A DNA stretch of 64,000 nt, taken from positions 51,646,001 to 51,710,000 of the forward strand of contig OZ024740.1 in NCBI GenBank assembly GCA_964016885.1, read 5' to 3'. Origin of the DNA: Eledone cirrhosa (taxonomy: Eukaryota). The notes beneath the pieces were generated by a model. That model saw only the letters and a list, made by a program, of their open reading frames with translations. It was not told the origin of the DNA and ran no database searches. This document shows, one piece after another, positions 14,483 through 38,027 of the stretch. Made by a program: the position numbers and the translations under genes. Position 1 is the stretch's first letter; each line of letters starts with the position of its first letter.

Positions 14483-14491
14483 TATATTATG

Positions 14492-14898: not shown

Positions 14899-14978
14899 TT
14901 TGATAAATAGTTCTCATTACTGAATTATTAAAAATTATTTTTACTCTTTCGCTCACCGAGCAAAACATGTTAAGGCGG

Positions 14979-15011
<33 letters not shown>

Positions 15012-15035
15012 GAATATGTGGAAGCTCATTATTTA

Positions 15036-15445: not shown

Positions 15446-16183
15446 TATTTATGTCTCGTAATGTAGCAGTTTGACAAAAAGAGATCGATAAAATAAAGTA
15501 GCAGACCTGAAAGAGAAACATCTAGGTGGTGCCCCAACATGGCCACAGTCTAATGACTAAAATCAGTAAAAAAATAATACAAAAGAATTTTGGGTGTGTA
15601 GGTAAATGTTACTGGTCATAGGTGTCAAGGGTCAGTGTGTGTGTGTATGGGGGGGGGGATAGAATTTTATGGGTGTATGTAGGCAGAGGTCACTTGATAG
15701 GGTAGGGGGAAGTATTAGTGAATATAATTGAATATATAGGAAGAGGTCACTGGACTGGACACAGATGTCAAAAGTAGGTAGAGGTCAGTGGATACAAATG
15801 ACATAGTTCATTGTATGAGATAGTGATGTGGTGAATGGTAAATATAATTGTGCGGGTGTATGTGTCGAAGTCACGGACTGTGTGTATGTGTGCAGGGGCC
15901 TCGTTTGCTTTAAAAATGTACGAGGGACAAACCAACATTTGTTGATTCTTAAAGGAGCATAAATTGCTTATGGTGCCTTACCCGGACCCGATCACATAAG
16001 TAACATTTTACGCTAATTAAATGTTATATATTCAAATGAAGTTCAGATATAAAAAAATTAGTTCAGATATAAAAAGGAATCTATCATATCAAATAAACAA
16101 AAAATAAAACATAGACGTTTGAAAAAGTGTGTGTATGGGGGGGGGGGGGGCTTGTCCCCTGGTACCCCCTTGAAACAAGGCTC

Positions 16184-16238
<55 letters not shown>

Positions 16239-16559
16239 TTTGTGTGTGTGTGTGTCAGGGTAACTGCCAAGGTGAAAATATATATAAGAAGATAAAGTAA
16301 AGAAAGGTAAGAGAAGTGATGATAGCGGAATTATGGGAAAAGGTAATGATTCTACATTTCATTATTTGTTTTTGGTCGATAAAATAAAGTACCAGTAATA
16401 CACTGGAATAATTGCTGGCCTTGTGCCAAAAGTAGAAACAATTATTTGTTTTTGTTGTTGAAATTATTTAAAGGTGTCCAAAGTTAGGAGGACTTTGGGG
16501 TTAAGCTGGAATCCAACTTCAGATCAGCAAATAAAGTATAGGCAAACCATCCGCCGACT

Positions 16560-18100
16560 TTGTAATAAAAAGTCCTCCTCCATAGCTACTATCAGGAATG
16601 CGTCTGAGGTTCTCTCTTCAGGTAGAAAGAACACTTTGCTGATCTCCTAAACCCGATCACAACAGCATCTTCTGATGACTAGTCTCTCAGAGACTGAAGT
16701 CACAAGAGAAATTAAAGAGCTCAAATGTGACAAGGCGGCTATGGAAGAGGAAACCTGGCCCGAGATGTTAAAAAGCTTTAAATATAGAAGGTATTCACTG
16801 GCTGATTCGTGTGTGCCATGTGGTCTGGATCTCTGGAAAGGCACCTAAGCAATGACAATCGGGAGTGATAATCTCAATTTTCAAAAAGGGAGACAATAGA
16901 GATTGTTCCAATTACAGAGGGATCTCCTTGTTAAGCCTCCTCGGTAAAGTCTATGTTAAGTGTCTGGCAAAGGGATGTAGGGAGATTGTCCAAGCTAGCT
17001 GATGAACAGTGGAGTTTTCGCCCCGGACGCAGCACAACCAAATATTCACGTGGGAGTATTGCCAAGAGGTATATTCTTGTTTTGTAAAAAAAAAGGCGTA
17101 TGATTGCGTTCCCCAGGACCTGCTGTGGAATGTTCTGCAAGAGTATAGGATCGATGGCCAGCTTCTGGCCCTATACGAGTGCCCAAGTATTTGTGTTCGG
17201 ATAAATCGAGTTAAATCGAAACCATTCAATGTGGGGTCGGATTGCGTCTAGAGTGAATACTGTCACCTCTCTTGTTCATTATTTTCATGAAACGGATTGT
17301 GCAGCTGGGTTGGAAGTGGTGTCACGACTGGCGGGTCTAAAATCAGACGAAATATAGTGTTATTTAACTCTACAGAAAGAGATCTCTGACTTGCATTTGA
17401 TAAGTTTGATGCCGAGTGCTGCATGGCTGGAGTGAATGTCAGTGCTGCGAAAACTGAGACACTCGTCCTCTCAAGGAAACCTGCGTAGTGCACTCTACAT
17501 GTGAATGGAGTTCCACTGAAGCTGGTGGAGAAGTTCAAGTATCTCTGGGCCGTGTTCACGAGTGATGGCAGACAGGAGGCTGGATTAAGTGTAAGAATTA
17601 CAGGAGCTGGTGCAGTTATAAAAAAAGGGAGGTAAGTGTAAAAGCCAAACTCGCTATCTTCAATTCGATATTAAAGCCAACCCTTACCTATGGTCATGAA
17701 TCTTGGGTAATGACCGAAAGAATACGATCACCAATACAAGCGGTCGAAATGGAGTTCACCCAAAGGGTCTTTTGAGTAACGTTACTCGATAAAGTGTGTA
17801 GTTCGGAGATCAGAGAGTCACTCCAATTGAGAGATCACAGCTCCAATACTTTTGGCATGTGGTTAGAATGTCTCAGGAAAGAATCGCTGGACAGATTTTA
17901 CGGGCAAAACCAATCGACAGGAGACCCAGTGGTAGACCCCGAGCCAGAAGGTTGGATAACATTTATGAGCTTGGCTGGTCTTGCTTGGGGATCCAGCCGG
18001 ATCAGTTGGAGATGGTTGCTTCTGACAGGACCCGCTGGAAGGAGTGTTTGAGGATTCTGCCCTCACGACCCTCTCAGGAATAAGTGGGTGAAGAAGAAGA
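16560..18100 (+). mobile_element. Decayed 5'-truncated RTE LINE
   Basis: KKGDNRDCSNYRGISLLSLLGKVY, KAYDCVP, KFKYL, YGHESWVMT, GRPRARRLDNI, and a (GAA)n tail. Confidence 0.85.
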
Positions 18101-18829
18101 AATGTAAAATGTTAATGGATGCGAGCCCTTTAGGGCTACAGATGAATTTTCTTCTTCTTCTTTGTCCACCTAGGAGTGGGGGAAGATCCACAGACGTGCT
18201 TTCCAGAGCGTCCTATGAAAAGCAACCGTTTCTAATTGATCTGACTAGATCACCAACTGAGACCAACCGAGCTCATGTTATCTAAACATCTTCATCGTGG
18301 CCTACCTCTGTGTCTCATGCTGAATAGCTTGCTCGTAAAATCTCTCTAGTGATCTTTCTTTAGACTTTATTTTATCGACCACGAAAAGATGGAAAGCAAT
18401 GTTCAACTCAACGGGATTCGAACTCCGAACAAATACCAACAATTCGCCACCCATATCTTTCAGGGTAAAATATTTCATGATAAATAATGGTGGGTGATAT
18501 TTGCAAGACAAAATTTCTCTATCAACTGATGAAAGTATAAACATTTAAGGATGTCGTGGATGCATTGTTAGATATTGTAGCTCTCGAAAATGGAACGTGG
18601 AGGTCGGGACGAGAATTATTCAACTTTATTTCTTCCTTAATATTCTTATATCATGACCCACCAATGTTGTCAGTGTATTCGGCTCATATTTAGAGGCTAT
18701 TTTAGAGTATTTAATTCGCCTTTTTCTTTTTGCTGTAAGCGACAACATGACTTCACAGCTATTCAGGAAATGGCTTCGACAACTTGCCATATAATACCTA
18801 AACTTGCACAAACATGGTGGCTTTCTTAA

Positions 18830-19049
18830 CCCTTTAGCATTTAAATTTCTCTAGATATACTATTGTATTTTCACAGCAAAGGTTTTATCTTACATAATAT
18901 CTCACATAATATTGAATCTATGAGAGTTTGATATCATTTATTTTGATAACAATACCTTAACATGAGTATGAGCAGCCGGTTACAGCCAGTTTGAACAGAA
19001 AGAGGTGAGAGAATTCTGGCCGGTTATGGCCGGTTTAAATTCTAAAGGG
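18830..19049. mobile_element. piggyBac-type MITE
   Basis: TTAA-ccctttagcatttaaa...tttaaattctaaaggg-TTAA. Confidence 0.88.
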
Positions 19050-19401
19050 TTAAGAAACAGTTATTACAGTGACATTAGAACAATATCTCTAATGGGAATC
19101 AAAAGTTGAAGAAGTCGATGGCATTACGAGAATTTATGACATTAAGCGATCGCGGAATCAAGGCCATATTAGCTTTCATTCGGTATGTTCTACAAGAGGT
19201 AAAGTTATTAAATGTTGAATTCGAATCTAATTAGTTCAGGTTGCATCTTCAGTGCTTCATAATATCGTAATTTTTAAAAAATCTCCCGAATCTCTATTAT
19301 CATTATTAAAGCTGAATCCCTAGATAACTAAATTATTAGAAGTTGATTAGTAGCTGCAAAAATATTAATATTTACTTTAGAGAAAAGGCAACAGTACTTT
19401 T

Positions 19402-19586
19402 AATAATTGTTTCTACTATTGGCACAAGGCCAGAAATTACCCAGTACATTACTGGTACTTTATTTTATCGACTCCGTAAGGATGAAAGTCAAAGTTAACC
19501 TCGGCGGGATTTGAACTCAGAATGGCAAGGGCCGTAACTCTATGCGTCAAAGCATGGCGTCCGACCCTCTACCGATACTGCCAATA
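19402..19586 (-). mobile_element. tRNA-SINE
   Basis: Reverse complement of the 15036 family. Confidence 0.88.
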
Positions 19587-20036
19587 CAAAACTAATTGTT
19601 GGAAATTCCTAGCGGAATTTTGTAATTCAACCTAGATGGAATTACTGCTAAACCTGAAGTATTGTTATACCAAAAGACAGCTCGTGAACTCAGCATCGTC
19701 TATAGTTCTGCAATATGTTGATTCCGCAGTCACTGTGCCGGAAAATAGATTAAGTCTTCTTGGAGATCAATGAAGTTATCATTTAATACCAGACAATTTA
19801 CCGATCTCCATAGAAATGTTTCTCAATACTGGTACATGTGAAGCGAAGCAATGGTTAGTGAATGTTGTTAGAGGTGTATTAACACAAAATAGATGGTTTC
19901 GTTTTGATACAAGATTTACTTCACTTCACTTTATAAATGAATAAAGAATAAGTTACAAAGTTATAATGGTTGACGATGTTTTTGTTGTTATGGTGAAATA
20001 GTCTGTGGCCAGAGAAGGTAAGACCAGGAGAGAGAG

Positions 20037-20074
<38 letters not shown>

Positions 20075-20199
20075 CCAAGAGGTCTGTAGAAAGCAAATGT
20101 TTTACATACAGAAATCAAAAATCAAATTAACATTCATTAGTAGATTAAATAGTAGAGTGGGATAATAATGGGAGGGCTCAAACGACATGCAAAAGTACC

Positions 20200-22490
20200 T
20201 GAAATCCAACCACAGCCGGCTATTGGCACATATTCTTCATTGACCATACTTAAATATGGAATGATACGCGATGGGGTCCCTCCCCCACACAGCCCCAGCG
20301 GACAGGATGGAGAAGGCGTTTCCCCAGAGGACAGCAAGGGAGACGCGCTGGAAAAGCCACTCCAACTCGCGGGGCTCACACCTACGGCTGGCCAGCTCAG
20401 CGCCTATCATGGTGAGTAGGGAGGTAGCCCTAGGGCCGAGGACACCAGAAGTTTCCACTGCCAAGGGTACAACCGCAAACCTGTCGGAGAGCGACCGGTA
20501 TTTGAGGAGTTTGGCCTCCTCAGCCCGACGTGCAGCAGAACCTGGGTTAGTCGCAGACTACACCAGGCTGCGGCTGCAGAAAGTGTTTGCCGTCCCCTCG
20601 GTCCAGCCCCACCGGCTCGAGCTGGGAAGGGAAGCCTGCAGCGTCTAAGCCATGCTTTATGACCTCGTTGAGAGCAACATGGCGTGGAAGGCGGCCGGAC
20701 TGTGGCGACAGGAAAGCGGGTGGAGGCCGAAAGAGTCCACGGTGGATCCGCAGCGACATTGGTGTGGCTCGCAGATCCGGAGGTCGAGCCTCAAGAAACG
20801 CCGATGCGCAGGCTATTGTTGTCTAGTTGCGTGCCAGTAGAGAGGGAGGCAGGGAATGGTGCCAGGCACTACTGTGGGGTTTGGAGGCCGCACGAAAACA
20901 GGCAAGGCGGTGCTGGTCGAGCTGGCGCGTGAGCCTGTCTGAGGCCAGGCTGCACTGGATGGCATCCCAAGTGCTTTAGGGGGACTTGACGTCAACAGGC
21001 GGAGAAGAATGAGGGACGTCTACTGGGCTAAGTCCCAGCCGGTCCCACGTCTCAAAGGCGGCCTCACGTTCTCTGAACACAGAGGGTTGTATTGTTTTGA
21101 CGAACCCTGCTGACGAGGACGCAACACGAGGTTACCGACGAAAGATACGCCGGCAAAGCCAGTGAGATCGGGAACCGGAGGCCAAGGCCGCCATACCTGA
21201 CAGATAAAGTGGCCTGTTGCCATCCAATATCGTCAAACTTGACGTTGCATATCTCCTCGGCTTCTGCTCGGATACAAGTATCGAGGTCAGCGAGGAGAGA
21301 TGTGTGGGTGTAGCACGGAGCGTTGCGAAGGGTATAGAGGAGCTTCGGCATGGCGAAGCAGTTCCTCAACAGAAAGAGAGCTGGGTGGCTGTCGATCAAG
21401 CCCAGTCGACTCGTGAGAGTCTGGAGTTGTTGAAGCCTGGACCTGATGGTGGAGAGGATGGCCGGCGGGTAGATCAGTGACCCGAGGATGAGGACATCCT
21501 CTTTGGGGGTCACTTGTACCTGGTGGAGTATGGACCACACGTCCGAGACATAGGCTGCAAAGCTCTCAGCATCGTGGCTGACATTCACCACCTCCGAGTT
21601 GACCTGGAGGCATGAACCACCGATTTTAGGTCATGGCAGACAGTCTGTACGGGCCCGCTCAACGTAGCATCATCCATATACCAAACGTTGAGAGGGGCCG
21701 TGATACTCCGGGTGATGTGATCTATACCAAGGGCAAACGAGTGGTCCCGGTGTAAGCAGTTGAAGGCATTCCTCATGTCAAGCTTGACAATGAGGTGCCT
21801 GGAGTCCCTGGATGCTGGTTCCGGTGGGCAGCTGTTGAAGAACTGCCTGGTTGCATGTGCGGCCCCCTCACAACAACCGGACACGCCGACACCCAGTTGC
21901 ACCGGACTGAACTCCTCACCCAGTCCGGGTGTTATGGACTTGCAGACCACCTTGGCAGCCAGCCTCCGGAAGAAATTGCTCACAGCGATCGGGCGTATGC
22001 CACCCCCTTTCTTCCTGAGAGCGGTGAGGTTAGCCGAAAAAAAGAGGCCTCGGGCGTGAGGGTCCAGGGTGCCATGGATGAGCCTATTGGTGGGTGCTTC
22101 AATTGCACTCAGAAGGCGGCGCCCAGCCTCAGCAGAGAGGGGGGATAGCAACTCCTTGAGGTGGCCTGGTCGGAGACCATCAGCACCTCCGCTGCTGCTA
22201 GCTGGGAAGGACTTGATTGCGGACATGATGTCTGCGTCGGAAGCCACAAGGAGCAAGTGGGGGTCGGGTGGTGGTATGGGTCTGAGATCAGCGGGTGGCT
22301 CAAGGTGCTTGAGTCGCAGGGTAGCCAGGACCTCCTCGGTGGATTGGAGGACAGTGTCCTTTGAGGCAACCACTCTGACTGCGGCCAAGACATCACCAAT
22401 GATTAATTTAGCATTTACGCGGTCACGCAAACGCTTGGCGCTGGCCTCAGGAGTGGAGGATTGGGTCACCCTGAGCCAATCCTCTGCGAA
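20200..22490 (-). mobile_element. CRE-clade non-LTR retrotransposon with internal deletions
   Basis: [91 protein letters not shown]. The RT QG motif region is deleted. Confidence 0.88.
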
Positions 22491-22662
22491 ACGCGCGTAA
22501 CAGGTCGATGCGCAATAAATATTTTTCATATGTAAACGAGACTACCTCGTTTTTTCTATTATATACACTCTACATGTGCATAGAGGGCTTGATTTGGCAC
22601 CAACACCAGTATTTCACCGTACTACCTACACTATACACACACACACACACACATTATATATA

Positions 22663-22836
22663 TATTAAAATAACAGATTAAAGTTTCAGCAAAGAATCGC
22701 TGCTTTCACCCTTAACGGGATCTTCTGAAATCTTTTTTCGTTTCAGAAGATCCCGTTAAGGGTGAAAGCAGCGATTCTTTGCTGAAACTTTAATCTGTTA
22801 TTTTAATAAATATTTGGTCTGTGTTTTTTTTTTATA

Positions 22837-22874
<38 letters not shown>

Positions 22875-22920
22875 CCTTGTCGAGCCCTCTTCGGATTTTA
22901 GTCTTCACATTTATTATTAC
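22663..22920. mobile_element. Inverted-duplicated short element carrying a hammerhead-like fold (PLE pLTR-like)
   Basis: Perfect arms at 22663-22730 and 22741-22808, plus a tail shared with 36512-36930. Confidence 0.8.
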
Positions 22921-23019
22921 TTTGCCTTTCATCCTTACAGGGTCGATAAAATAAAGTACCAGTAATGCACTGGGTATTGCTGGCCTTGTGCCTAACGTAG
23001 AAACAATTATTATTATTAT

Positions 23020-23073
<54 letters not shown>

Positions 23074-23127
23074 TCAACATTCTAATTGGATTTTAAAATA
23101 TTTGTAATAAAATGCGGAAAAAAAATA

Positions 23128-23211
23128 AATTTGTAACTGAATTCTATGTTAGCCTGGCGGAGATTCGAAATCGAATCTCCGCCAGGCTAACATAGAATTC
23201 AGTTACAAATT
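23128..23211. repeat. Perfect hairpin, 41-bp arms, 2-nt loop
   Basis: aatttgtaactgaattctatgttagcctggcggagattcga-aa-reverse complement. Confidence 0.95.
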
Positions 23212-23529
23212 AAATAGTGAAAGTAAGGGGAAGGGAGGAGTGAGTGGCAGACTCTATACTCCAGCCTAGGTGGTATATCTTAGCTGCATCCCGTAGACAA
23301 AATGGCGAAGGCATCGTCGCGAAGAACAGCCAGCAACATCCACTGTATTAATCAAACCACCCCATTTGGCTCCTTCCTCAGGCGGAATGCACTCCTCCAA
23401 ATTTTGCGGAGGAAAATTGCTGCTCGATAGTCGAGGACACCAGAGGTCTCGACGGCGTCCGGCATGAAAAAGGAAGTGGTCGATCAAGTTACAGCATTTG
23501 ACTACATGTTAGGCATTATATAGAGAAAA

Positions 23530-23770
23530 GGAGGTGAAAACGCATAGCTTAGTGGTCAGGGTGTTCATCTCAATATCGTAAAGTCCTGTGTTCAATTCCT
23601 GGACCGGGTGGCAAATATGAGTTATACCTGTAATTCAAGGAGGAAACTTTGTCACACTTGTGTACCACTGAATCTTTCTGAGAACTATGTTAAGGGTGCA
23701 TGTGTCTATGGACCCTCAGATACATACACGTTAATTTCACGAACAGGTAGTTCCGTTGATTGAATGGGCC
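23530..23770 (+). mobile_element. tRNA-SINE, second family
   Basis: tagcttagtggtcagg A box and gttcaattcc B box. Body shared with 3172-3440 and with an inverted copy at about 24090-24340. Confidence 0.6.
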
Positions 23771-24419
23771 AACTAGCGGTCACTGCACCAGCAAGAAATA
23801 GTTGTTAAATCTCCCAGTCAGGCCACAACTATCTTGTAAAACCACAGCTGTATTGGATATATTTAATAAGGAACTAGACTACAACAAAAACATTGCTTTA
23901 TATGACACACGGGAGTATCTTCAAACAATGAGTCAGCTCTTTTCAACAGTCTGAAGCTAACACATTGTTGGAGTCAGATTAAGAAATGAGTCATTGTGAC
24001 CGGGGTTACTTACAAGGTCACATATACATCCGGTGAGATGAGGTAAAGTAAGTTTTGACGATGAGTATTCTACTTGCATGATTAACCGAACGGCCTGTTC
24101 CTTAAATTAACGCGTGACCCATTAGCGTAATTCCTAGGGAGATACTACCAGACACAGTGTGTGTCAAGGTTGGGTTTTTCAATTACATTTACAGTCAAAA
24201 CAGCTTCCAAACAATTTCTGTCTCCCCAATTTCACTAACAAAAGTTGGGTCGATCCGATAGTACTTGGTTAAGATATTATGCACAAGGATCAAACCTAAA
24301 ACCTTATGATTTTGAAGCGAACCTCTTGACCATTTAGCCATGTTACGTCCATAGTGAGGAGTGGTAGGGTAAATGTTATAGTCATTAAGAAATGTATTGC
24401 ATTTAGTTGATCCTTGGAC

Positions 24420-24870
24420 AATTTAAACAGGCAATTATTGAGGCCACATGTTCAGGTTGTGATAGGAAACTGGTCGCGTCAAGGCTCCTTTTGATGACGT
24501 CGTTCAAGCTAGTGTGCCGAGGAAACCGACCTGTGCTGTGGCGACAAGAGAGCGGATGTAGTTCGAACTCATCGGCCATGGGTTCACAATGGCATTTGTG
24601 TTGTTGACTCACGCGGAATTCAAAGCGCTTGGACACTCTGGGTACTCTCACCATCAAGAAAGGTACCGGTTGATGAAGAGAGCGCCAGTTGATGAGGAAT
24701 GCACCGGTTGAAGAGGAGGGCACCGAACTGAGTCATGCGCTGCTGTTTGGCTGCGAGACAGACCAGAGGTAGAAGAGCCAGTGTTAGTCCAGGGAAATCC
24801 ACTAGCTTCACAACAGCTTCTCCCTCGGAAGGATCTGGACAGCTAACACATCCTTATTGGAGGTAGACAA
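24420..24870 (-). mobile_element. CRE-clade fragment
   Basis: [33 protein letters not shown]. Confidence 0.78.
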
Positions 24871-25639
24871 GGCGATATCTCTGGCAGGAGCTTGGGAGTT
24901 TCTGATATTGGCCAGACTCAGCCATAGCACATGCTCGCTAATTTGACTCTGAGTCAGTTTCAGATATCGTTGGTGTATGTAAATTCAGTTTCGAGGTAGT
25001 TTTGAAAGCATTATCACTGAGATGCCCAGATAATGTATATGAAACTGCCACTGTCAACCTTCTCTATTACATAAACATCTCAACCTCCTTAATGACCACT
25101 AGTACGGCTTTCGTAAAACCAGATCTACTGAAGACTCAGCTTTGATAGATTTAGCTATTTTAGTTATTCCAGCGTCGTAGACTTGCTATCACCTGTGACA
25201 ATGTTGCATGTGTGTTGGCTTACCTAAAAAAATATTAGAGGGTGGTTCGAGCACACCTTGTGGTATGTGATTGAATGTGGTGATCCTTTCTCCACCACAT
25301 TTTTTCTTCATTATTCACTCACTTTTATCTCTCCACCTACTTCTTTTTTTTTCAGTTTTTTAGTAATGTATATATCTGCATAGTCTAATTCATTATATAA
25401 ATTGTATTGACAAATTACTTGTATAATAAAGTTTCTTAAGTAATTGCTGTTTTATTTCACCATCTGCATTATCTAGGCTTCTAAGTCTTTTTAAATCTCA
25501 ACACATGGTCACACAAACGCACATGTATAGATGTATATATAAAGTATATACATTTATATAATATAAATTAAGCCGTTAATGCCAAATGCAACGAATTTGA
25601 CATTAAAGGGGTTGTTCACCCCCCCCCCCCCCCCCTGCC

Positions 25640-27724
25640 CTCTTTGTCCTCCCGCGTCCTTGAGAGAAACATCCTCCAGTCCCTCCGGACGACAACCTAC
25701 ACTTGCTCGACCCTTCAGGTTATTTACAGCCTGTTTTCACCTCAGACAACAGGAAGGCGATTGTATCATTTCTTGCGGGTTCTGGTGGCAGGAATTGGTG
25801 GTCTACGACCTCAACATCTCAAGGATAGTATCTCCCTATCAGCTGGCGTTGCCGGCCCTCAGCTCTTGGAGAACCATGTTCTCGCCCTCTGTTTTTTTGG
25901 GGGGCTAAACTGTTTGGTATCACAAAGACCAATGGTTACCTCTATCCCATAACAGTTGGGCGTACTCTGCGACGGCTCACAGTGAAAGTGTGTCTGTCCT
26001 CGGCTCCAGACTTCCTGTCCACCGAATAGGGATTCAGCTAGGTGTAGGTACCAAGCTGGGTCATGTGGTTATAGCTCACGCCACTAGAGCTTTTATCAAC
26101 TTGCCTTCTGAGACTCCAAATGTTATTCTCAAACTAGATATTAGGAACGCTTTCAGTTTCACCCGTTGGGATGTCATCTTTCGTTCAGTAAGGGAGAGGG
26201 TCTCCCAGCTGCAGCACTTTGCTTGGCAAGCTTATAGGGAGCCCTCCAACCCCCTATCTGCATCAGGGATCCAACAGGCGACCTTTGAACATCTGGTGTC
26301 TTGATGATGCTTTTTTTTGTTTTTTGGAGGGAGGGGGGTTCCAGAGAAGGTCCTTCCAACTGCGAGGACGATGATTGAGGAACTTGGTCGTAGGGGCCTT
26401 TACGCTTACAGTTGCAAATGGGAGCCCTGGCTCCTCAAACACCCAGTTTCACATCAGAGACTGTAGACCTGTTTACCGATACCTTTCCTTCTATTCCGAT
26501 TCCTCCCTCATCAGCGACGTGCGCCCTTGGAGCCCCAATTACTGACTGAACCTTCGATCCCACATTTCAATCCAAGTTGGCTAACCTCGAGCAACTGTTA
26601 AAAAACCTTGAGGCTTTTCATCCCCACTAAGGTTTTTTATACTTAGAAATTACTTGTCGATTCCGAAGTTGTATTTTCTCAGAGTTAGTCCATCCTATAG
26701 ATTCTCGTTGTCTCTACAACGCTTTGACGGCCTAATCTTCAGCGAACTCGAATGCTGGATCAATGTCAGACTCTCCCCAGAGTCCCGCAATTAGGCTGCC
26801 TTGCCTGCCCAAACGGTTGGAGGTCTAGGTTTGCGTAAATACTCGTATCCGTCTCTTCTCTGTTTTCTTTCCTTCATTTGCGTTTGCTCCCTTTGGTAGA
26901 AAATATCCTCTCCTTTCCAACATGGACTAGTTCCAACAGGAAGATTGATGAAGCTTTACTACAGTGGAGAGAGCTAGGTTTGTAGACAGAAGTAGAGAGT
27001 ATGGGACAATCTGCGTTCGAGTGATACCTTCAACTCTCTCTTTGATCAATCAGATCTATTTTCAAGGTGTCGCCTATTTTCTGCAAGCGCAAAATTCTTG
27101 GGGAACCGAGTTGATGCACTGCCTGTGACCAACATTGGTGGTCTTCTTAGTCTGGGTGAGGTCCGCATCTCCATTGCAATCAAAGTGGGAGCCGATGTCT
27201 GCGGGGGACTGCGATATCGCTGTGGTAGGCCCCTCGATTCCACAGGCCTCCATCATTTGTATTGCCGCCTGAATGCTGGTCGCTTCGCCCGCCACACTAA
27301 ACTAAGCTTGATCATTAAGCGGGCTCTAGCTCGGGTAAATATCCCCTCTGGATTATCCAGGATTGCTGAGAAGAGACCAGATAGCCTTACCCTTTGTCCC
27401 TGAGTAAGAGGTAGATATCTCATCTGTGACACCACAATCAGTGACTCTTTTGCTCACTCCCACATCCTGGATGCTGCGGTGAATGTGAGGGACGCTGCTT
27501 CCGTAGCTGAACGGAATAAAATTCTAAAGTACAGGAACTTATCGGTAGACCTTTTCTTCCAGACGTTTGGGGGAACTGGGCCGCTGACAGCAACATTCTT
27601 GTCATCGTTAACGGCTCGCCTTACCGAGGTGTCAGGTGATGCTCGTGAGGGTGCTTGGCTATTTCAGCGTCCTAGCCAAGTCATCACCCGAGGCATGTTG
27701 GCTTACCTAAACAAATTCCGATGA
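25640..27724 (+). mobile_element. Old CRE-clade copy
   Basis: GGLRPQHLKD, QLGVG, KLDIRNAFS, YRCG..DSTGLHHLYC..GRFARH, KRPDSLT, WLFQR, with many stops and frameshifts. Confidence 0.85.
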
Positions 27725-28211
27725 CCCATGTAGTGTGACCGATTGACGCATTTAGTGTAGAATTAATTGAGAATTAATTGGGGTTTTTTCGCCTTATTGT
27801 ATATTTTTGTGTATTATATTTATAAAGTTTCTAGCAATAATTAATTAATTATATGTATATATTTTTTAATTTTATATTTTTATCTATTAATTATATTTGT
27901 TAAATGATAATAGAAATGCTTTTTTTTTAATATAAAAACAAACAAAATTTAGTTCAGTAGTATAGTGTATACATGTATATGTAGTGGACAACAGGAACAA
28001 CATAATTCAGTGAATCTCGTTTTTCATAATGGATAATGTTATCAAACTCTATGTATGTATGGGGTACAAAGGTCGGTCGAGTAAAGAGATACATAAGTAT
28101 AGGTGTAGTCTGGGTTAAATTTTATTTGATTTTATTATTGCCCCCCCCCCCCCCCCCCCCCCAGTGAAGTATATCTCTAATGACTTGATTTTTTATTTCA
28201 TTGTTTTAACT

Positions 28212-28243
<32 letters not shown>

Positions 28244-28295
28244 CACGCATATACATATACATATAAATACATACATACACATGACTGCTATTTAA

Positions 28296-28324
28296 TACCC
28301 GAGCAACACCGGGTACCTCTGCTA

Positions 28325-28325
<1 letters not shown>
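28296..28325 (+). mobile_element. Helitron-type 3' terminus
   Basis: Hairpin tacccg-agcaacac-cgggta followed by CTAG|T. Confidence 0.65.
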
Positions 28326-28382
<57 letters not shown>

Positions 28383-28520
28383 GTTGGCATGTTACTAGTT
28401 CTGACAAGATTAGTACTCCACACTTAAGAAAGTAAAGTCTGGTAGGTATTATATGGGGTACGAAGGTCGGTCGAGTAAAGAGATACATAAGTATAGGTGT
28501 AGTCTGGGTTAAATTTTATT

Positions 28521-30620
28521 TGTAATCACAGATAGTTAAATCTCCCCCTTTGTAATCACAGTTAGTTAAATCTCCCCCTTTGTAATCACAGATAGTTAAA
28601 TTTCCCCCTTTGTAATCACAGATAGTTAAATCTCCCCCTTTGTAATCACAGATAGTTAAATTTCCCCCTTTGTAATCACAGATAGTTAAATCTCCCCCTT
28701 TGTAATCACAGATAGTTAAATTTCCCCCTTTGTAATCACAGATAGTTAAATCTCCCCCTTTGTAATCACAGATAGTTAAATTTCCCCCTTTGTAATCACA
28801 GATAGTTAAATTTCCCCCTTTGTAATCACAGATAGTTAAATCTCCCCCTTTGTAATCACAGATAGTTAAATTTCCCTCTTTGTAATCACAGATAGTTAAA
28901 TTTCCACCTTTGTAATCACAGATAGTTAAATTTCCCTCTTTGTAATCACAGATAGTTAAATCTCCCCCTTTGTAATCACAGATAGTTAAATTTCCCTCTT
29001 TGTAATCACAGATAGTTAAATTTCCACCTTTGTAATCACAGATAGTTAAATTTCCCTCTTTGTAATCACAGATAGTTAAATCTCCCCCTTTGTAATCACA
29101 GATAGTTAAATTTCCCTCTTTGTAATCACAGATAGTTAAATTTCCACCTTTGTAATCACAGATAGTTAAATTTCCCTCTTTGTAATCACAGATAGTTAAA
29201 TCTCCCCCTTTGTAATCACAGTTAGTTAAATCTCCCCCTTTGTAATCACAGATAGTTAAATTTCCACCTTTGTAATCACAGATAGTTAAATTTCCCTCTT
29301 TGTAATCACAGATAGTTAAATCTCCCCCTTTGTAATCACAGATAGTTAAATTTCCCCCTTTGTAATCACAGATAGTTAAATTTCCCTCTTTGTAATCACA
29401 GATAGTTAAATTTCCACCTTTGTAATCACAGTTAGTTAAATTTCCACCTTTGTAATCACAGATAGTTAAATTTCCCCCTTTGTAATCACAGATAGTTAAA
29501 TCTCCCCCTTTGTAATCACAGATAGTTAAATTTCCCCCTTTGTAATCACAGATAGTTAAATTTCCCTCTTTGTAATCACAGATAGTTAAATCTCCTCCTT
29601 TGTAATCACAGATAGTTAAATCTCCCCCTTTGTAATCACAGATAGTTAAATTTCCCTCTTTGTAATCACAGATAGTTAAATCTCCCCCTTTGTAATCACA
29701 GATAGTTAAATTTCCCTCTTTGTAATCACAGATAGTTAAATCTCCCCCTTTGTAATCACAGATAGTTAAATCTCCCCCTTTGTAATCACAGATAGTTAAA
29801 TTTCCCTCTTTGTAATCACAGATAGTTAAATCTCCCCCTTTGTAATCACAGATAGTTAAATTTCCCTCTTTGTAATCACAGATAGTTAAATCTCCCCCTT
29901 TGTAATCACAGATAGTTAAATTTCCCTCTTTGTAATCACAGATAGTTAAATCTCCCCCTTTGTAATCACAGATAGTTAAATCTCCCCCTTTGTAATCACA
30001 GATAGTTAAATTTCCCTCTTTGTAATCACAGATAGTTAAATCTCCCCCTTTGTAATCACAGATAGTTAAATCTCCCCCTTTGTAATCACAGATAGTTAAA
30101 TTTCCCTCTTTGTAATCACAGATAGTTAAATCTCCCCCTTTGTAATCACAGATAGTTAAATTTCCCTCTTTGTAATCACAGATAGTTAAATTTCCCTCTT
30201 TGTAATCACAGATAGTTAAATTTCCACCTTTGTAATCACAGATAGTTAAATTTCCCTCTTTGTAATCACAGATAGTTAAATCTCCCCCTTTGTAATCACA
30301 GATAGTTAAATTTCCCTCTTTGTAATCACAGATAGTTAAATTTCCCCCTTTGTAATCACAGATAGTTAAATCTCCCCCTTTGTAATCACAGATAGTTAAA
30401 TTTCCTCCTTTGTAATCACAGATAGTTAAATCTCCCCCTTTGTAATCACAGATAGTTAAATCTCCCCCTTTGTAATCACAGATAGTTAAATTTCCCCCTT
30501 TGTAATCACAGATAGTTAAATCTCCCCCTTTGTAATCACAGATAGTTAAATCTCCCCCTTTGTAATCACAGTTAGTTAAATCTCCCCCTTTGTAATCACA
30601 GTTAGTTAAATTTCCCCCTT
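28521..30620. repeat. 30-bp tandem array, 70 units
   Basis: tgtaatcacagatagttaaatYtccccctt. No indels, and substitutions fall in a few columns. Confidence 0.99.
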
Positions 30621-30724
30621 TGCCGATGATCCAACATTTGACAACTGTGATTCACCGATTAATGGTGAAATATATTTCTTTGATGGAATATGTACAAAGG
30701 AGATTAATCATTATTGCAAGGTAT

Positions 30725-30941
30725 GTGGGCGGTGGATTGGCAGTATCGGTAGAGAGTCGGGTGCCATGTTTTGTAGCATAGAGATACAGCCCTTTATGAT
30801 CTGAGTTCAAATCTCGCCGAGGTTAACTTTGCCTTTCATCCTTACGGGGTCGATAAAATAAAGTACCAGTCACGCACTGGGGTCGATTTAATCAACTTTC
30901 CCCTCCCCCAAAATTGTTAGCCGCATGCCTATATAAGAAAC
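30725..30941 (+). mobile_element. Full tRNA-SINE with target-site duplication
   Basis: cattattgcaaggtat repeated at 30709-30724 and 30942-30957. Confidence 0.9.
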
Positions 30942-31214
30942 CATTATTGCAAGGTATCTATATTTAGGGTTCTCGTAAATTTATAATATGTTACCTATGT
31001 AACTATATGTTTACACTCTTTACAAATTATCCCCTGTAATTGTTTGATGTGTTTATTATATATATGTCAATAGATTTTTAATTTAATATTAATAAATGCT
31101 CAGATTTATTCCTTAGAATTCTTTGAGCTTATTCTACAGGTGGTATAGCGCATGTTTCTGATATTCTCAGACATTACATTTTTAATTTAATTTTGGTAAT
31201 ATATATATATATAT

Positions 31215-31396
31215 CCACGTGATTCGCCAACACTACACCTGATATCCCCCTCCATACACACACACACACATGTATTTGATGACTCATACACTGTTCAATT
31301 ACCTGACATTTGTACATCATTCTATGTACTATACATGCACCTTTGATGAGTTGTAGTACACCTGAGCACTGTACACAATAATTTCATTATTATTAT
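31215..31396 (+). mobile_element. 3' UTR fragment of the CR1-like LINE at 61484-64000
   Basis: attcgccaacactacacctga...tgatgagttgtagt...ctgtacacaataatttcatt followed by (ATT)n. Confidence 0.8.
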
Positions 31397-31544
31397 TTTA
31401 TATCTGTGAATATGTTAAGTATATTTGCAGAGAGGAGTTCTCGGTGCTATAATTAAGATTGGGTAAGAGTCATATGTAAAAGTTATAATTAATTGTAATT
31501 ATACATATGTATGTGTCAAATAGTGTTCGATGCGTCTTATAGAG

Positions 31545-31723
31545 CAGACAAGTCAAACTAAGGGTCCGCCGAGGGCCACATGGGTCACATATGTGTTGTC
31601 TGAGGACCACACATGACAACTATTTTTTTAAATTTTATATTACGAAGATAAAGCATGCTCGTGCTGTAAAAACCCTTTGTGCGGACCGCATGCAGCCCGC
31701 GGGACGCATGTTTGACATGCCTG
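31545..31723. mobile_element. hAT-type MITE
   Basis: TIR cagacaagtcaaac / gtttgacatgcctg with a perfect 8-bp TSD ttatagag. Confidence 0.9.
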
Positions 31724-31743
31724 TTATAGAGTACACATAGTGA

Positions 31744-34700
31744 AAGAAATACCCACCAAACACAATCCAAAACTTCAGAGTTGGTACCATGAATGTAGGG
31801 ACCTTAAAAGGCCGCTCAAACGAGGTAGTAGAAATGCTTGAACGTAAGGAGGTTGATGTCTGCTGCATCCAAGAGACCAGGTGGAGGGGCGGGTCTGCTA
31901 GATTCATTGTGGGTAAAAAACGATGCTATAAGCTTTTCTGGGTGGGAAATGACAATGGGCTGGGTGGGGTAGGAATCATGTTAGCAGAAAAATGGGTGGA
32001 TAAGATAATAGATGTAAATAGAGTAAACGACAGAATAATTAAAATAAGACTTGTTCTAAATAGAACTACTGTGACGATAATATCTGCGTACGCGCCCCAA
32101 TCCGGACTGCCTGGCGCTATAAAAGACACTTTCTATGAGACACTGATGCTCACTACCTCCCAAATAACCGACAGTGACTATATAATTATTACTGGCGACC
32201 TAAATGGTCACGTTGGACAACATTGTGACGGCTATGATGAAATCCATGGAGGCTATGGGTTTGGTACTAGAAATGAGGAAGGCTCCAGAATCCTGGAATT
32301 CTGTGACGCAAATAACCTAACAATCTGTAACACTAACTTCAAAAAACGAGACAATCACTTGATCACCTACAGATCAGGGGAACATACCAGCCAGGTAGAT
32401 TATATCCTTACCAGAAGACGTGACAGAGTGACTGTTGTAAACACTAAATCCCTCCCCCATGAAGAATGCACCTCCCAACATAGACTGATAATTAGCGACC
32501 TCATAGTCAGGACGAGACGTACTCGACAGCAGAAGAGGACTATCCTCAGGAGAAAAATATGGAAGCTAAAGGACCCCACAGCCAGAAATAAATTTCAAAG
32601 CATATTACTTGACGCTTTCGACAGTAAGGAAGAGCATTTAGAGTCGGACAATATAGAGGGACAGTGGGAATTCCTGAAAGCAAACCTGCTGATGGCGGCA
32701 GACGAAGTCTGTGGCCGGAGCAGGCCTATAGGCAGGAGGAGAGTAACATGGTGGTGGAACAGTAAGGTGGAGGAGTCGATTAAGGCCAAAAAGCAGGCTT
32801 GGAAAATGTGGCGGGATGGGGGAAGTAGAGAAGACTATCAAGTGGCCAGGAGGGAAGCTAGGAGACAAGTGTACTTTGCAAGAAGGGAAGCAGAGGAAAG
32901 AAAGTTCAAGCATGTTCTACAACGCGAGGACCAAAAACGTGAGGTGTTCAGGATTGCTAGGCAATGTGTCAAGAAAAACCGTGATATTGTTGGGGAGAAG
33001 TGTGTACTAAATGATGATGGCGTACTCGCCATCACTGACGCTGATAAGAAGGTCGCTTGGAAGTGTCACTACGAGAGGCTACTAAATGAGGAGAATAAAT
33101 GGGAGAAGGATAGTCTCCCCCAGATCGATCCAATAGAGGGACCAGCAGTGTTAGTTGAAGGTAGTATAATAAGTAAGGCGATCAAAGATATGAAGACGGG
33201 TAAGGCGGCTGGGCCTTCGGAAATAGTCGCTGAGATGCTGAAGGCCTCTGGAACGGTGGGACACACCATGGTCACCCGGATAGTAAACCAAGTCATACAG
33301 AATGGGGTTGTTCCGAAGGACTGGCGTAGCAGCATCATCATTAACTGTTACAAGGGTAAAGGAGATGCCCTAGATAGGAGTAACTATAGAGGGATTAAAT
33401 TAATCGACCAGGTCATGAAGGTCACGGAAAAAGTAATAGTGCAACTAATCAGAGAGAGAATCGATCTAGATGAAATGCAGTTCGGGTTTGTGTCAGGCAA
33501 AAGTACCACAGACGCTCTCTTCATTGTACGACAACTACAGGAGAAGTACCTAGCTAAAAGTAAACCCCTATACTTAGCCTTTGTCGACTTGGAGAAAGCC
33601 TTCGACAGAGTCCCCCGTTCCATTATCTGGTGGGCCCTTAGAAAACTAGGTGTTGACGAATGGCTTGTGAGAGCTATACAAGCCATGTATAAAGAAACAG
33701 TGAGCAAGGTTAGAATTAACAACGAATATAGTGAAGAGTTTAGCGTAAAAGTTGGTGTCCATCAGGGCTCTGTTCTTAGCCCCCTACTATTCATTATTGC
33801 TCTTCAGGCTATAACAGAGGAGTTCAAGACCGGCTGCCCATGGGAACTCCTATACGCAGATGACCTAACGCTCATAGCTGAATCAATGGCCGAGCTAGAG
33901 AAGAAATTCCAAACATGGAAGCACGGCCTAGAATCAAAAGGCCTTAAAATTAACATGGCTAAGACTAAAGTTCTAGTTTGTAGGAAAGAAAATAAGGCGC
34001 CGGTCCCTTCCGGGAAATGGCCATGCTCAGTGTGTAGGAAAGGCGTAGGTAGAAACTCCATCTTATGTCCCAAATGCAAAGTATGGGTGCATAAAAGATG
34101 TAGTGGGATCACAGGTAAGCTAACTAAGAACACAGATTTTACATGTGGCCGGTGCTCTGGTGCAATAAGTAGCAGCAAGTGCCCACAGAATACTAGCTCT
34201 TTCAACTGCGCAGAGGGTTCTATAGAAATAGTGGACAGCTTCCGTTACCTGGGTGACAAAATCAGCAGTGGGGGAGGGTGCTCCGAAAGTACAGTAGCTA
34301 GAGTCAGAACTGGATGGAAAAAGTTCAGAGAGCTTATACCACTATTAGCCGCTAAAGGGTTCTCCCTAAAAGTGAAGGGCAGAGTGTATGATGCCTGCAT
34401 ACGAACAGCAATGTTGCATGGCAGTGAGACCTGGGCATTGTGTGCATAGGATATACGCAGACTAGAGAGGAACGAAGCTTGCATGCTCCGCTGGATGTGT
34501 AATAGTAATATACGCGAACGGCAAAGCATAAACGAACTAAGGAAAAAATTAGAAATAAGAGGGATCAGATGTTGTTTACTCGAGAGAAGGCTACGTTGGT
34601 ATGGTCACGTGATGCGCATGAAAGACGACAGCTGTATAACAAAGTGCAGGGCAATAAAGATAGATGGTAGCCACGGAGTAGGCAGACCCAGAAAAACCTG

Positions 34701-35292
34701 GGACGAGCTGATAAATTCCGACCTCACACACTTACACCTCTCCAAGACAATGTCACTGGACCGAGACCTTTGGCGGTACTCAGTAACAGAGAAGACCCGC
34801 GTTACCTAAATACAAAGTAAAACCTACTACAGTCAGCAGGCATCTCTAACAAAATACACCCCCCGTCCCACCACCCCCACCCCATCCACACCGCCCCTTT
34901 CAATGTAAAGTTATGTTGGTGCCACAAAATCCAGGCCGAAACAAATGAGATCGTGTAGGTGTCACGTCAAAAAAACACACAGTTCACGCTGTAATGTGAC
35001 CGTGTAGGCAACACGGTAAAAACGTCCCAGTCCCACACTGTAAATGTGGTTGGTGTTAGGAAGGGCATCCAGCTGTAGAAAACCTGCCAGATAGTCCACG
35101 CTGTAATGTGGCCGTGTAGGCAACACGGTAAAAACCTCCCAGCCCCACACTGTAAATGTGGTTGGTGTTAGGAACGGCATCCAACTGTAGAAAACCCGCC
35201 AGACAGTCCTATGCGAGCAAGACAACCACTCTTGCCTCAAGTAGGAAAACTCCCGTCCAAACCCATGCAAGCATGGAACACGGACGTTAAAC

Positions 35293-35327
<35 letters not shown>
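31744..35327 (+). mobile_element. Near-complete RTE-clade LINE
   Basis: APE-RT ORF, a 3' UTR with an internal duplication, and a (GAT)n tail. Confidence 0.95.
31789..34809 (+). pseudogene. RTE ORF (AP endonuclease, RT, PHD-like Zn finger) with one premature stop
   Basis: CIQETRW, GDLNGHVG, VDYIL, SQHR, FVDLEKAFD, GVHQGSVLSP, LYADDL, CSVC..CPKC..HKRC..CGRC. TAG at 34447-34449, then the same frame continues to 34809. Confidence 0.95.
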
Positions 35328-35442
35328 GTGTCATAGGTATAACAAAAAGCATGTAATCATAGTAAATATGTGAGTGTAATATGTAATCCTCTTTCAGAAG
35401 ATAGTTTTATTAAGTAAACTTTTATTATACAAAGCATATAAA

Positions 35443-35663
35443 TAAATTTACAGTAGAATAACATAACAAATATGTTTTAAATCTATACATAAATAACATT
35501 ACAAATGCTTAGTTAACATTATAAATTGCTCGCGATTCTTTAAGAATGTTACAATATCCTTCTGAAAGAATCGCGAGCAATTTATAATGTTAACTAAGCA
35601 TTTGTAATGTTATTTATGTATAGATTTAAAACATATTTGTTATGTTATTCTACTGTAAATTTA
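35443..35663. repeat. Perfect inverted repeat, 99-bp arms
   Basis: 35443-35541 against 35565-35663. A diverged third copy of the arm lies at about 36280-36360. Confidence 0.93.
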
Positions 35664-35990
35664 ATGTAAAGGAAGGGGTATGTTATGGCTATAATTAAAT
35701 GTATGTGTTCATATTGAATATAAGTTCAGGGTAGTTAGTGTTAATGATATATGAAAAAAATTTCGTTTTTTACAAAAACACTATAAAAATTGGAAGGAGA
35801 TCAATATTTAATGTAAAAACGTATTAAGTAATTACTTTAATATATATATATATATATATACATATATATACATATATATATATAACGAAGAAAGTGTTGT
35901 CCAGAAATAGCCGTCGAACGGCTTGAGCTCTGCCGTCGGGGTCTAGAACATTTTCCTACACATATATATATGTATATACATATACATACG

Positions 35991-36047
<57 letters not shown>

Positions 36048-36171
36048 CGAAGGAAGTGTGGTAAGTAACCAGCTGGACCATAACGCACAAAAGTACTCTA
36101 TACTGGGTAATAGAGTGGGTAATAGGAAAAGAGTCAGGCCGGAGCTCAGCCGTCGGGGTCCTGACTCTTTT

Positions 36172-36237
<66 letters not shown>

Positions 36238-36442
36238 GAATTTATCTTTCATTATACCATCCTTTGTAGTGTTACCGAGGCATTTGTAGTGTTATTTATG
36301 TATATATTTATATATTTAAAACATATTTATGTTATTCTACTGTAAATTTATTTATATGCTCTGTTTATATTTTCATTCTGAAGGAACTTATCCACTTGTG
36401 TTGATATAAGTGATTTTATGACTTTCCTCTAAGCATTGTGTC

Positions 36443-36511
<69 letters not shown>

Positions 36512-36519
<8 letters not shown>

Positions 36520-36925
36520 TAAAATAACAGATTAAAGTTTAAGCAAAGAATTGCTGCTTTCACCCTTAACGGGATCTTCTGAAACTAACAAAGTCAATCT
36601 GTAAACGCAGAACTGGATATTTCAAAAAACGTTGCAACCGGAGGAAGACAGGAAGACGATACATTGGTTCGTGGAAACGTTCCCTGCCAAAGAACGGGAA
36701 AAAACGAATATAATACGGTTGCAACGTTTTTTGAAATATCCACTTCTGCGTTTACAGATTGACTTTGTTAGTTTCAGAAGATCCCGTTAAGGGTGAAAGC
36801 ACCGATTCTTTGCTTAAACTTTAATCTGTTATTTTAATAAATATTTGCTCTACGGTTCTTATATATTATATATATTTATCCTTATCGAGCCCTCTTTGGA
36901 TTTTAGTTTTCAAATTTATTATTAT

Positions 36926-36930
<5 letters not shown>
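36512..36930. mobile_element. Second copy of the inverted-duplicated hammerhead-like element
   Basis: Arms at 36512-36640 and 36716-36844, tail matching 22809-22920, embedded in (TA)n. Confidence 0.82.
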
Positions 36931-36983
<53 letters not shown>

Positions 36984-37235
36984 TATAAATAACAATCAAA
37001 GAGTGTTTAAATGTTTTAAGTATAATATATTTAACTTTTGTAATAGACACATGTTATTCAAATGTATGAATATTTTTGAGTGGTAATATATTTATATTTT
37101 TTCTATGTATGAACTTACGTGTGTATATGTATATATTTGCCTTTATATATATGTGATTATTTATATATTTTTTTGTACGTACGGTCTTTTTATGTGTATA
37201 CATGTATTTTTTTATATGGTGATATGTTTATTACA

Positions 37236-37317
<82 letters not shown>

Positions 37318-37391
37318 CACATACACACACACACACACACACATACATACATATTACGACTGTTTGGAATGTAATGTTTTTGAATACTCAC

Positions 37392-37580
37392 GTGAAATCC
37401 ACCGCAATAAAGTTCGTTGTCTTGATAATTGTGAGGCGTCGAGTATCCTCTTTTCCACATGCTCGATCGACCACAAGGCTCCCATAACCGACCATGGGCT
37501 CGAACAGAGTCGAATAGACACAATAAATAAATAATAAATACGAACGTGAGCAGCCGAGTTAATAGTAGTTGTTTTTCCAT
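37392..37580 (-). CDS. First coding exon of a secreted AA15-type lytic polysaccharide monooxygenase (chitin-binding type-4 domain protein)
   Basis: MEKQLLLTRLLTFVFIIYLLCLFDSVRA|HGRLWEPCGRSSMWKRGYSTPHNYQDNELYCGGFH: hydrophobic signal peptide, V-X-A cleavage before His, HGRL.EP..RSSMW.G..P.NY.DNEL.CGG motif. Ends at a phase-0 GTGAGT donor (37391-37386). Confidence 0.9.
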
Positions 37581-38027
37581 TTGAAAGTAGAAAGTAAAAG
37601 TGAGGGAAGGGTGACAGATAGAGAATGAACGGAGAAACTATAAAATGTTTGAACGATAAATACTGTTGATTGGTCAAAGTGTTTTGTTCTTAAGTATAAT
37701 TAATTCACTGTGACTTAATTACTGTTATTAACTCCTAATTACTCAATTACTTCAATGAACTCAAGCAACTAATGTAATTTATCCTGTGCGTGTGTTTATG
37801 TTGCGACCACTTCATCGTCCTATCATCCTATTGATATTGTCCACAAGTACGCGTGTCGCCTTATGTGCTTTTCTATATAACTCATCCCAAAGAAAGCAAA
37901 TATATATATATATGTATGTGTAAAGTTATATTTAAAATTGTTGGGTTACAACTAGTAAATTCTTCAAATGAAGTTGATGTTTATTACGGTATGTCGAATA
38001 TATTTTTCTATAAAACTGTTTATATTG

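What the first reader, a model, noticed from the sequence alone, without database searches (positions are those of the whole stretch)
37392..37580. Hidden host gene: exon 1 of a secreted AA15 LPMO masked by a microsatellite ORF
Seen: a 28-aa signal peptide ends exactly before His29 (codon 37496-37494), followed by HGRLWEPCGRSSMWKRG..NYQDNELYCGGFH and a textbook GTGAGT donor. Known: LPMOs need a mature N-terminal His for the copper histidine brace, and AA15 enzymes oxidatively cleave chitin or cellulose in animals. Inference: this is a cephalopod chitin-remodelling or prey-digesting LPMO. It has EPCGR where EPPSR is more usual, which adds a Cys near the active site. I found no exon 2 (expected ..GKCGVCGD..) in 37 kb, so intron 1 is probably very large.
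Basis: partly seen in the sequence, partly recalled or inferred. Interest (0 to 1): 0.75.

Follow-up and report, generated by a model that had tools for sequence, protein, structure and literature searches.

The report
Ordinary octopus chitin-cutting copper enzyme
This stretch is the first exon of an intact, spliced three-exon gene, split by a 99-kb intron, for an ordinary member of a known family of animal copper enzymes (AA15 LPMOs); it likely cuts chitin and is predicted to be tethered to the cell surface rather than freely secreted.

Summary
Window 37580-37392 (minus strand) is coding exon 1 of an AA15 lytic polysaccharide monooxygenase gene. Exon 2 lies 99,302 nt downstream and exon 3 a further 2,736 nt on, both outside the window; they give an open 264-aa frame. 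A 1,376-nt contig of one public run tiles the three exons without introns and reads through the predicted donor. His1, His89, Ala87, axial Phe185, Tyr24, Trp166 and ten family cysteines are present. It groups with Octopus sinensis and Argonauta proteins; six further His-bearing paralogs are in the genome. Two corrections: the protein ends in a hydrophobic tail (likely GPI or membrane anchor, common in mollusc homologs), and the extra Cys8, real and seen in 0 of 117 homologs, lies at the far end of strand 1, probably not near the copper. A 32.9-kb satellite and retroelements fill intron 1. Activity, substrate and tissue are untested. No earlier scan note covered this gene; two covered histidine-less relatives on other DNA. 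Verdict: ordinary new member of a known family.

The parts
37581..37832 (-). 5' UTR of exon 1 (at least 252 nt; two short upstream ATG frames at 37826 and 37815; main ATG has A at -3 and G at +4)
   Evidence: X1 contig covers 37832-37392 with no differences. A contig end does not mark the true transcription start.
37497..37580 (-). 28-aa signal peptide (hydrophobic core, Val at -3 and Ala at -1)
   Evidence: 11-residue Kyte-Doolittle mean 3.1; cleavage site inferred from alignment of His1 with homologs; SignalP not available
37494..37496 (-). His1 of the mature protein (histidine brace)
   Evidence: aligned to His1 of 5MSZ; His in 116 of 117 homologs with a residue there
37473..37475 (-). Cys8 codon (TGT), an eleventh and probably unpaired cysteine
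   Evidence: Cys in 0 of 117 homologs (Pro 111, Val 3, Ala 2, Ser 1); no other letter in X1 or X2
37392..37496 (-). first 35 residues of the AA15 domain, with Tyr24 and Cys31
37386..37391 (-). splice donor GTGAGT of intron 1 (phase 0)
   Evidence: X1 contig leaves the genome here and continues in exon 2
1..37391 (-). in-window part of intron 1 (whole intron G000:C1:51584090-51683391, 99,302 nt), with microsatellites, a 30-bp minisatellite and retroelement remains. Beyond the window's left end lie a 32.9-kb satellite of a 19-bp unit (C1:51584759-51617685), exon 2 (C1:51583708-51584089, 382 nt, with Ala87, His89 and six cysteines) and the coding part of exon 3 (C1:51580748-51580971, with Trp166, Glu183, Phe185, three cysteines, the hydrophobic tail and TGA, then at least 329 nt of 3' UTR)
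   Evidence: intron; satellite; exon 2; exon 3

Best explanation
This is exon 1 of an intact, spliced three-exon gene for a 264-aa AA15 LPMO that likely cuts chitin oxidatively and is predicted to be tethered to the outer cell surface by its hydrophobic tail. Shown: gene structure, open frame, splicing in one run, and all active-site residues. Inferred from the family: signal peptidase frees His1; His1 and His89 bind one copper; after reduction the copper uses H2O2 or O2 to hydroxylate a glycosidic carbon (C1, recalled) of crystalline chitin held on the flat face marked by Tyr24 and Trp166, which nicks chains for chitinases. Inferred from sequence: the tail is swapped for a GPI anchor or stays as a membrane helix, so the enzyme would work where chitin meets the epithelium that makes it (beak, radula, sucker or gut lining; tissues from general knowledge). 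Cys8 is most likely a tolerated lineage-specific substitution, and the large intron a result of satellite and retroelement growth.
For: Exons at C1:51683392-580, 51583708-4089 and 51580748-971, GT-AG introns, 795-nt frame without internal stop. X1 contig of 1,376 nt = 441 + 382 + 553; its loose end at the donor equals exon 2 bases 3-32 and occurs once in 264 kb; contigs of X2-X4 run through the introns. 5MSZ matches: exon 1 E 7e-7, exon 2 E 1e-19, ortholog E 4e-44. Ortholog model pLDDT 91.7, best PDB match 5MSZ, TM 0.95, rmsd 1.3. His89 in 120 of 120 homologs, Phe185 in 119 of 120, Glu183 in 120 of 120. An axial Phe was suggested to go with chitin degradation (PMC8393829, passage); insect LPMO15-1 has Trp and Phe at the same two places (PMC9156745, passage). 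Tail: best 15-residue hydropathy 2.37 with no Lys or Arg behind it; orthologs 1.75, 2.54, 1.88; a C-terminal helix in the ortholog model; 47 of 120 homologs pass 1.8.
Against: No activity, copper binding, substrate or tissue data. Splicing rests on one contig of one run whose type is not on record, from one study that may be the genome's own sample. The GPI signal is a poorer fit here than in the orthologs: the Ser-Ser-Ala-Ser of O. sinensis is Ser-Pro-Ala-Ser, and the remaining good small-residue sites lie 37-40 residues from the end, beyond the 20-30 given in PMC7125958. The structure is of the ortholog P0002 (153 of 193 domain residues identical), not of this protein. An odd cysteine number is rare (4 of 120 homologs).
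Confidence: 0.72

Rival explanations
1. A freely secreted digestive LPMO that attacks the chitin of crustacean prey; the tail is cut off or never anchors.
For: Thermobia AA15s and Tribolium group III enzymes are gut enzymes (PMC5823890, PMC9156745, passages). The GPI signal here is imperfect, and GPI-anchored proteins can be shed (general knowledge).
Against: Those gut enzymes have only the catalytic domain; this one and its three orthologs keep a hydrophobic tail. The Tribolium group II gene, whose product has a predicted transmembrane span, is expressed in carcass and not midgut (PMC9156745).
Confidence: 0.17
2. Cys8 is functional: it links two molecules or a partner by a disulfide, or serves as a redox entry point, making this copy a variant enzyme.
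For: Cys8 is in the spliced contig and a DNA-like run, is absent from 117 aligned homologs, and leaves an odd count of eleven.
Against: Not conserved even in the orthologs (Val, Pro, Val at that place in P0002-P0004); the site tolerates Val, Ala and Ser; it lies after strand 1, away from His1 (ortholog model).
Confidence: 0.06
3. A non-catalytic chitin-binding or copper-handling surface protein with the LPMO fold.
For: No activity shown; a histidine-less AA15 relative appears to exist in this genome, so the family can lose catalysis.
Against: Every brace and second-sphere residue checked is intact.
Confidence: 0.04
4. An orphan exon or pseudogene.
For: No Pfam hit for exon 1 alone; no exon 2 in the window.
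Against: Downstream exons found, frame open, spliced contig present.
Confidence: 0.01

Closest known systems
Octopus sinensis LOC115214156 (P0002, 260 aa) and Argonauta hians homolog (P0003), both labelled 'uncharacterized protein' with PF03067
   Same: One clade with this gene and unnamed P0004 (FastTree support 0.997); 153 of 193 and 139 of 195 domain residues identical; same layout of signal peptide, AA15 domain and short hydrophobic tail.
   Different: Cys at mature position 8, a seven-Ala run in the tail, and Pro in the likely GPI attachment region. Their intron sizes could not be checked.
TdAA15A of Thermobia domestica (PDB 5MSZ; PMC5823890, passages and the structure section read)
   Same: His1, second His (89 here, 91 there), Ala (87, 89), Tyr24, ten cysteines, fold.
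   Different: Axial Phe185 for Tyr184, Trp166 for Tyr166, one tongue cysteine shifted in the alignment, an eleventh cysteine, and a C-terminal hydrophobic tail that TdAA15A lacks.
Insect group II LPMO15-2 (PMC9156745, passages read)
   Same: AA15 domain followed by a predicted membrane span and no cysteine-rich module.
   Different: Orthology not tested (no labelled group II sequence in my tree); the tail here may be a GPI signal.
Insect group I LPMO15-1 (PMC9156745, passages read)
   Same: His, Tyr, Ala, His, Trp, Phe active-site set as listed for TcLPMO15-1.
   Different: No ~120-aa C-terminal stretch with two six-cysteine repeats; the tail is 43 aa without Cys.

Membership tests
CAZy AA15 LPMO | Signal peptide whose removal exposes an N-terminal His | tested here: met
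   Hydrophobic 28-aa leader ending Val-Arg-Ala; the following His aligns with 5MSZ His1 and 116 of 117 homologs. The cleavage itself is inferred; no SignalP.
CAZy AA15 LPMO | Second brace His and the Ala two residues before it | tested here: met
   His89 and Ala87 align with 5MSZ His91 and Ala89; His in 120 of 120 homologs.
CAZy AA15 LPMO | Axial Tyr or Phe; surface aromatics at 24 and 166 | tested here: met
   Phe185, Tyr24, Trp166; mapped to 5MSZ Tyr184 and Tyr166 through the ortholog, as exon 3 alone gave no 5MSZ match.
CAZy AA15 LPMO | Ten conserved cysteines | tested here: met
   Cys 31, 45, 48, 98, 111, 151, 154, 176, 179, 188, plus extra Cys8; ten is the family norm (PMC5823890; 90 of 120 homologs).
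CAZy AA15 LPMO | LPMO_10 (PF03067) profile and AA15 beta-sandwich fold | tested here: met
   Exon 2 scores 49 bits, cut-off 23; exon 1 and exon 3 alone give no hit. Fold tested on ortholog P0002 only: 5MSZ first, E 8.5e-23, rmsd 1.3.
CAZy AA15 LPMO | Copper-dependent oxidative cleavage of chitin or cellulose | not testable with these tools
   Needs enzyme assay.
Insect group I LPMO15-1 | C-terminal stretch with two six-cysteine repeats | tested here: not met
   43-aa tail with no Cys.
Insect group II LPMO15-2 | C-terminal membrane span | tested here: inconclusive
   Hydrophobic 15-mer of mean 2.37; span versus GPI signal not resolved.
Insect group II LPMO15-2 | Common descent with insect group II | not tested
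   No labelled group II sequence was in the tree.
GPI-anchored proteins | Small omega and omega+2 residues, about 10 polar then about 20 hydrophobic residues, 20-30 in all (PMC7125958) | tested here: inconclusive
   Fits P0002 (sites 29-31 from the end) and P0004 (24); here the small-residue sites are 37-40 from the end or weak. Hand rule only, no predictor.

The most novel reading that the evidence does not exclude
A cephalopod clade of surface-anchored AA15 enzymes shapes chitin as it is laid down in beak, radula or suckers, and this lineage's copy has gained a free cysteine that links it covalently into a dimer or to a matrix partner, a mode not described for animal LPMOs in the papers I saw.
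Probability: 0.05. Interest if true: 0.55.

Novelty: new member of a known kind. Interest (0 to 1): 0.2.

Why it matters
Mostly as annotation: it completes a gene that a window-based reader or a gene caller could miss, because exon 1 is 99 kb from the rest and its frame runs into a microsatellite. AA15 genes in molluscs have been known since 2018 (PMC5823890), and the orthologs are in databases as uncharacterized PF03067 proteins. My six literature searches listed no study of a cephalopod AA15, so this gene is a fair candidate for asking how octopods remodel chitin in beak, radula and suckers; that is a gap in coverage, not a surprise.

Tried and rejected
Pfam on the 63-aa and 35-aa exon 1 peptides: no hit; too short, not evidence against. 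Exon 3 alone against Pfam and PDB sequences: nothing relevant. Run search with exon 2: no RNA holder listed; four runs of unrecorded type from one study; X1 was judged RNA-like only from its intron-less contig. The exon 2-exon 3 joint is not among the 15 joint rows shown (52 not shown); it is read from the two pieces of one record in table 8. An intron-less retrocopy as the source of the contig is unlikely: the genome search with P0002 gave exon-wise matches only. A nearer partner exon or tandem copy was excluded within 274 kb. The search 'LPMO15' or 'GPI' returned only general GPI papers. Look-ups of earlier findings by sequence and by place were blank. The distance from Cys8 to copper could not be measured: no coordinates are returned and the spliced protein itself was not folded. 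The order of branches within the ortholog clade is unresolved (support 0.23 for query with P0002). No supplements were read; alignments in the supplements of PMC5823890 and PMC9156745 may bear on position 8 and on C-terminal anchors.

Full report
Observation. On the minus strand an ATG at 37580 opens 63 codons that end at 37392, followed by GTGAGT. His29 is codon 37496-37494 and the extra Cys is codon 37475-37473. Without splicing the frame runs on into a (TA)n repeat, which explains the 'microsatellite ORF'. The 35 mature residues match only TdAA15A among solved structures (E 7.1e-7). Pfam does not recognise so short a piece.

The rest of the gene. The window is G000:C1:51646001-51710000 of a 3.0-Gb genome. 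A PF03067 search of the genome gave seven matches, one on C1 99 kb downstream on the same strand. Searching with the only longer homolog of exon 1, Octopus sinensis LOC115214156 (P0002), added exon 3. Boundaries: exon 2 C1:51584089-51583708 (382 nt), exon 3 from 51580971 with TGA at 51580750-748. Both introns are GT-AG; intron 1 is 99,302 nt in phase 0 and intron 2 is 2,736 nt in phase 1; the joined frame is 264 aa with no internal stop. The 264 kb read hold no N, and a profile scan of 274 kb finds one copy of each exon, so the pairing is unambiguous.

Splicing. Four runs from one study hold exon 2; their type is not on record. In X1 one contig of 1,376 nt and depth 12.7 covers exon 2 (record 438-824) and exon 3 with 3' UTR (825-1376) and skips intron 2, whereas X2-X4 contigs lie across the intron. 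On the window, a contig of the same length, depth and strand covers 37832-37390 as record 1-443 with no differences and has a loose end that equals exon 2 bases 3-32 and occurs once in 264 kb; 441 + 382 + 553 = 1,376. Records are numbered per call, so that it is the same contig is inferred from these agreements. It is one run, perhaps of the same animal as the genome, and says nothing of tissue or level.

Protein. Against 120 homologs (the best 120 of 337 listed): His1 in 116 of 117 with a residue there, His89 120 of 120, Ala87 108, Tyr24 113, Glu183 120, Phe185 119. These map to His1, His91, Ala89, Tyr24 and Tyr184 of TdAA15A, and Trp166 to Tyr166 (roles from PMC5823890, structure section read). 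The Trp and Phe variants are those of insect LPMO15-1 (PMC9156745, passages), and an axial Phe has been suggested to go with chitin degradation (PMC8393829, passage). The ortholog P0002, folded with 114 sequences, gives pLDDT 91.7 and matches 5MSZ first (E 8.5e-23, TM 0.95 by target length, rmsd 1.3). This protein itself was not folded.

Orthologs and paralogs. In a FastTree tree of 125 domain sequences (this protein, 118 homologs and six paralogs; P0005, P0006 and the divergent C2 paralog left out) the gene groups with P0002, Argonauta hians P0003 and unnamed P0004 at support 0.997; none of the six paralogs falls in that clade. The paralogs have a donor at the same place and first introns of about 0.9, 2.6, 2.7, 4.2, 6.3 and 19 kb (from coordinates). 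That the genome is of an octopod is inferred from these nearest named proteins.

The extra cysteine. Position 8 is Pro in 111, Val in 3, Ala in 2, Ser in 1 and Cys in 0 of 117 homologs; Gly at 9 is common (19). The ten family cysteines are all kept, so Cys8 is an eleventh; 4 of 120 homologs have an odd count. It is present in X1 and X2. In the ortholog model, mature residues 2-6 are one strand and 7-9 the turn after it; at about 3.3 A per strand residue (general knowledge) position 8 would be near 20 A from the His1 amine. It is not conserved in the orthologs, so I read it as a tolerated substitution.

The tail. After the domain come 43 residues without Cys, with a 15-residue hydrophobic stretch of mean 2.37 and no basic residue behind it; the orthologs score 1.75, 2.54 and 1.88, and 47 of 120 homologs reach 1.8. 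The ortholog model has a helix at 240-259. By the rule in PMC7125958 (passages) P0002 and P0004 look like GPI signals; here a Pro sits in the likely attachment region and a (GCT)7 run lengthens the tail, so GPI versus membrane span is open. Insect group II enzymes have a predicted C-terminal span (PMC9156745), so an anchor is not new to the family.

The intron. Tandem repeats make up 39% of intron 1, chiefly a 32.9-kb array of a 19-bp unit (about 1,735 copies) that ends about 670 nt before exon 2. In the window part lie reverse-transcriptase and integrase frames. Its size needs no special explanation.

Mechanism and verdict. Shown: an intact, spliced gene with a full AA15 active-site set and a hydrophobic tail. 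Inferred: copper binding by the histidine brace, oxidative nicking of chitin, surface anchoring, and a role in chitinous structures rather than in digestion (0.72 overall; family membership about 0.97). Six literature searches listed no cephalopod AA15 study; of the papers listed I read passages of PMC5823890, PMC9156745, PMC8393829 and PMC7125958, and only listings of the rest. Earlier scan notes were blank for this gene; two concern histidine-less relatives. It is a new member of a known kind, interest 0.2.

Noticed in passing
G000:C2:154069625-154081490 (+); L015, L058, L059: A divergent AA15-like gene that appears to lack both brace histidines: the likely exon 1 has Gln where His1 should follow a signal-like leader (weak match, E 0.11), exon 2 (E 3.6e-22) has Gln at the second His, and a likely exon 3 (weak, E 0.12) lies in a frame of about 400 codons. 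Splicing not checked.
   Followed up: partly
G000:C1:51584759-51617685 (L018-L022): 32.9-kb satellite of a 19-bp unit inside intron 1, with recurrent longer spacings (2.7, 6, 7.9 and 9.2 kb) that suggest block duplications; none of its 30 commonest 12-mers occurs on the same strand in the window.
   Followed up: partly
window 31744-34449 (+): 901-aa open frame of a LINE with endonuclease, reverse transcriptase and a PHD-finger match just after the RT domain; related pieces lie near C1:51619232 and 51635689. The clade (RTE-like) is my recalled label.
   Followed up: partly
window 5758-8876 (+): LTR-retroelement remains in five separate frames, three with reverse-transcriptase or integrase matches; broken by frame changes.
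   Followed up: no
window 28519-30622: 30-bp minisatellite, 70 copies, open for 711 codons on the minus strand; probably a repeat artefact.
   Followed up: no
window 39838-42227 (+) and 51528-53849 (+): Further reverse-transcriptase frames upstream of the gene; the frame at 41535-42227 has a weak PAPS-reductase match below cut-off (E 0.004).
   Followed up: no
G000:C7:23337622-23361000 and C9:39230887-39262883: Two closely similar tandem AA15 paralogs on C7 and a divergently oriented pair on C9; the C9 minus-strand copy seems to have an extra intron in the exon 2 region.
   Followed up: partly
window 37826 and 37815 (-): Two short upstream ATG frames (4 and 22 codons) in the 5' UTR covered by the X1 contig.
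   Followed up: no
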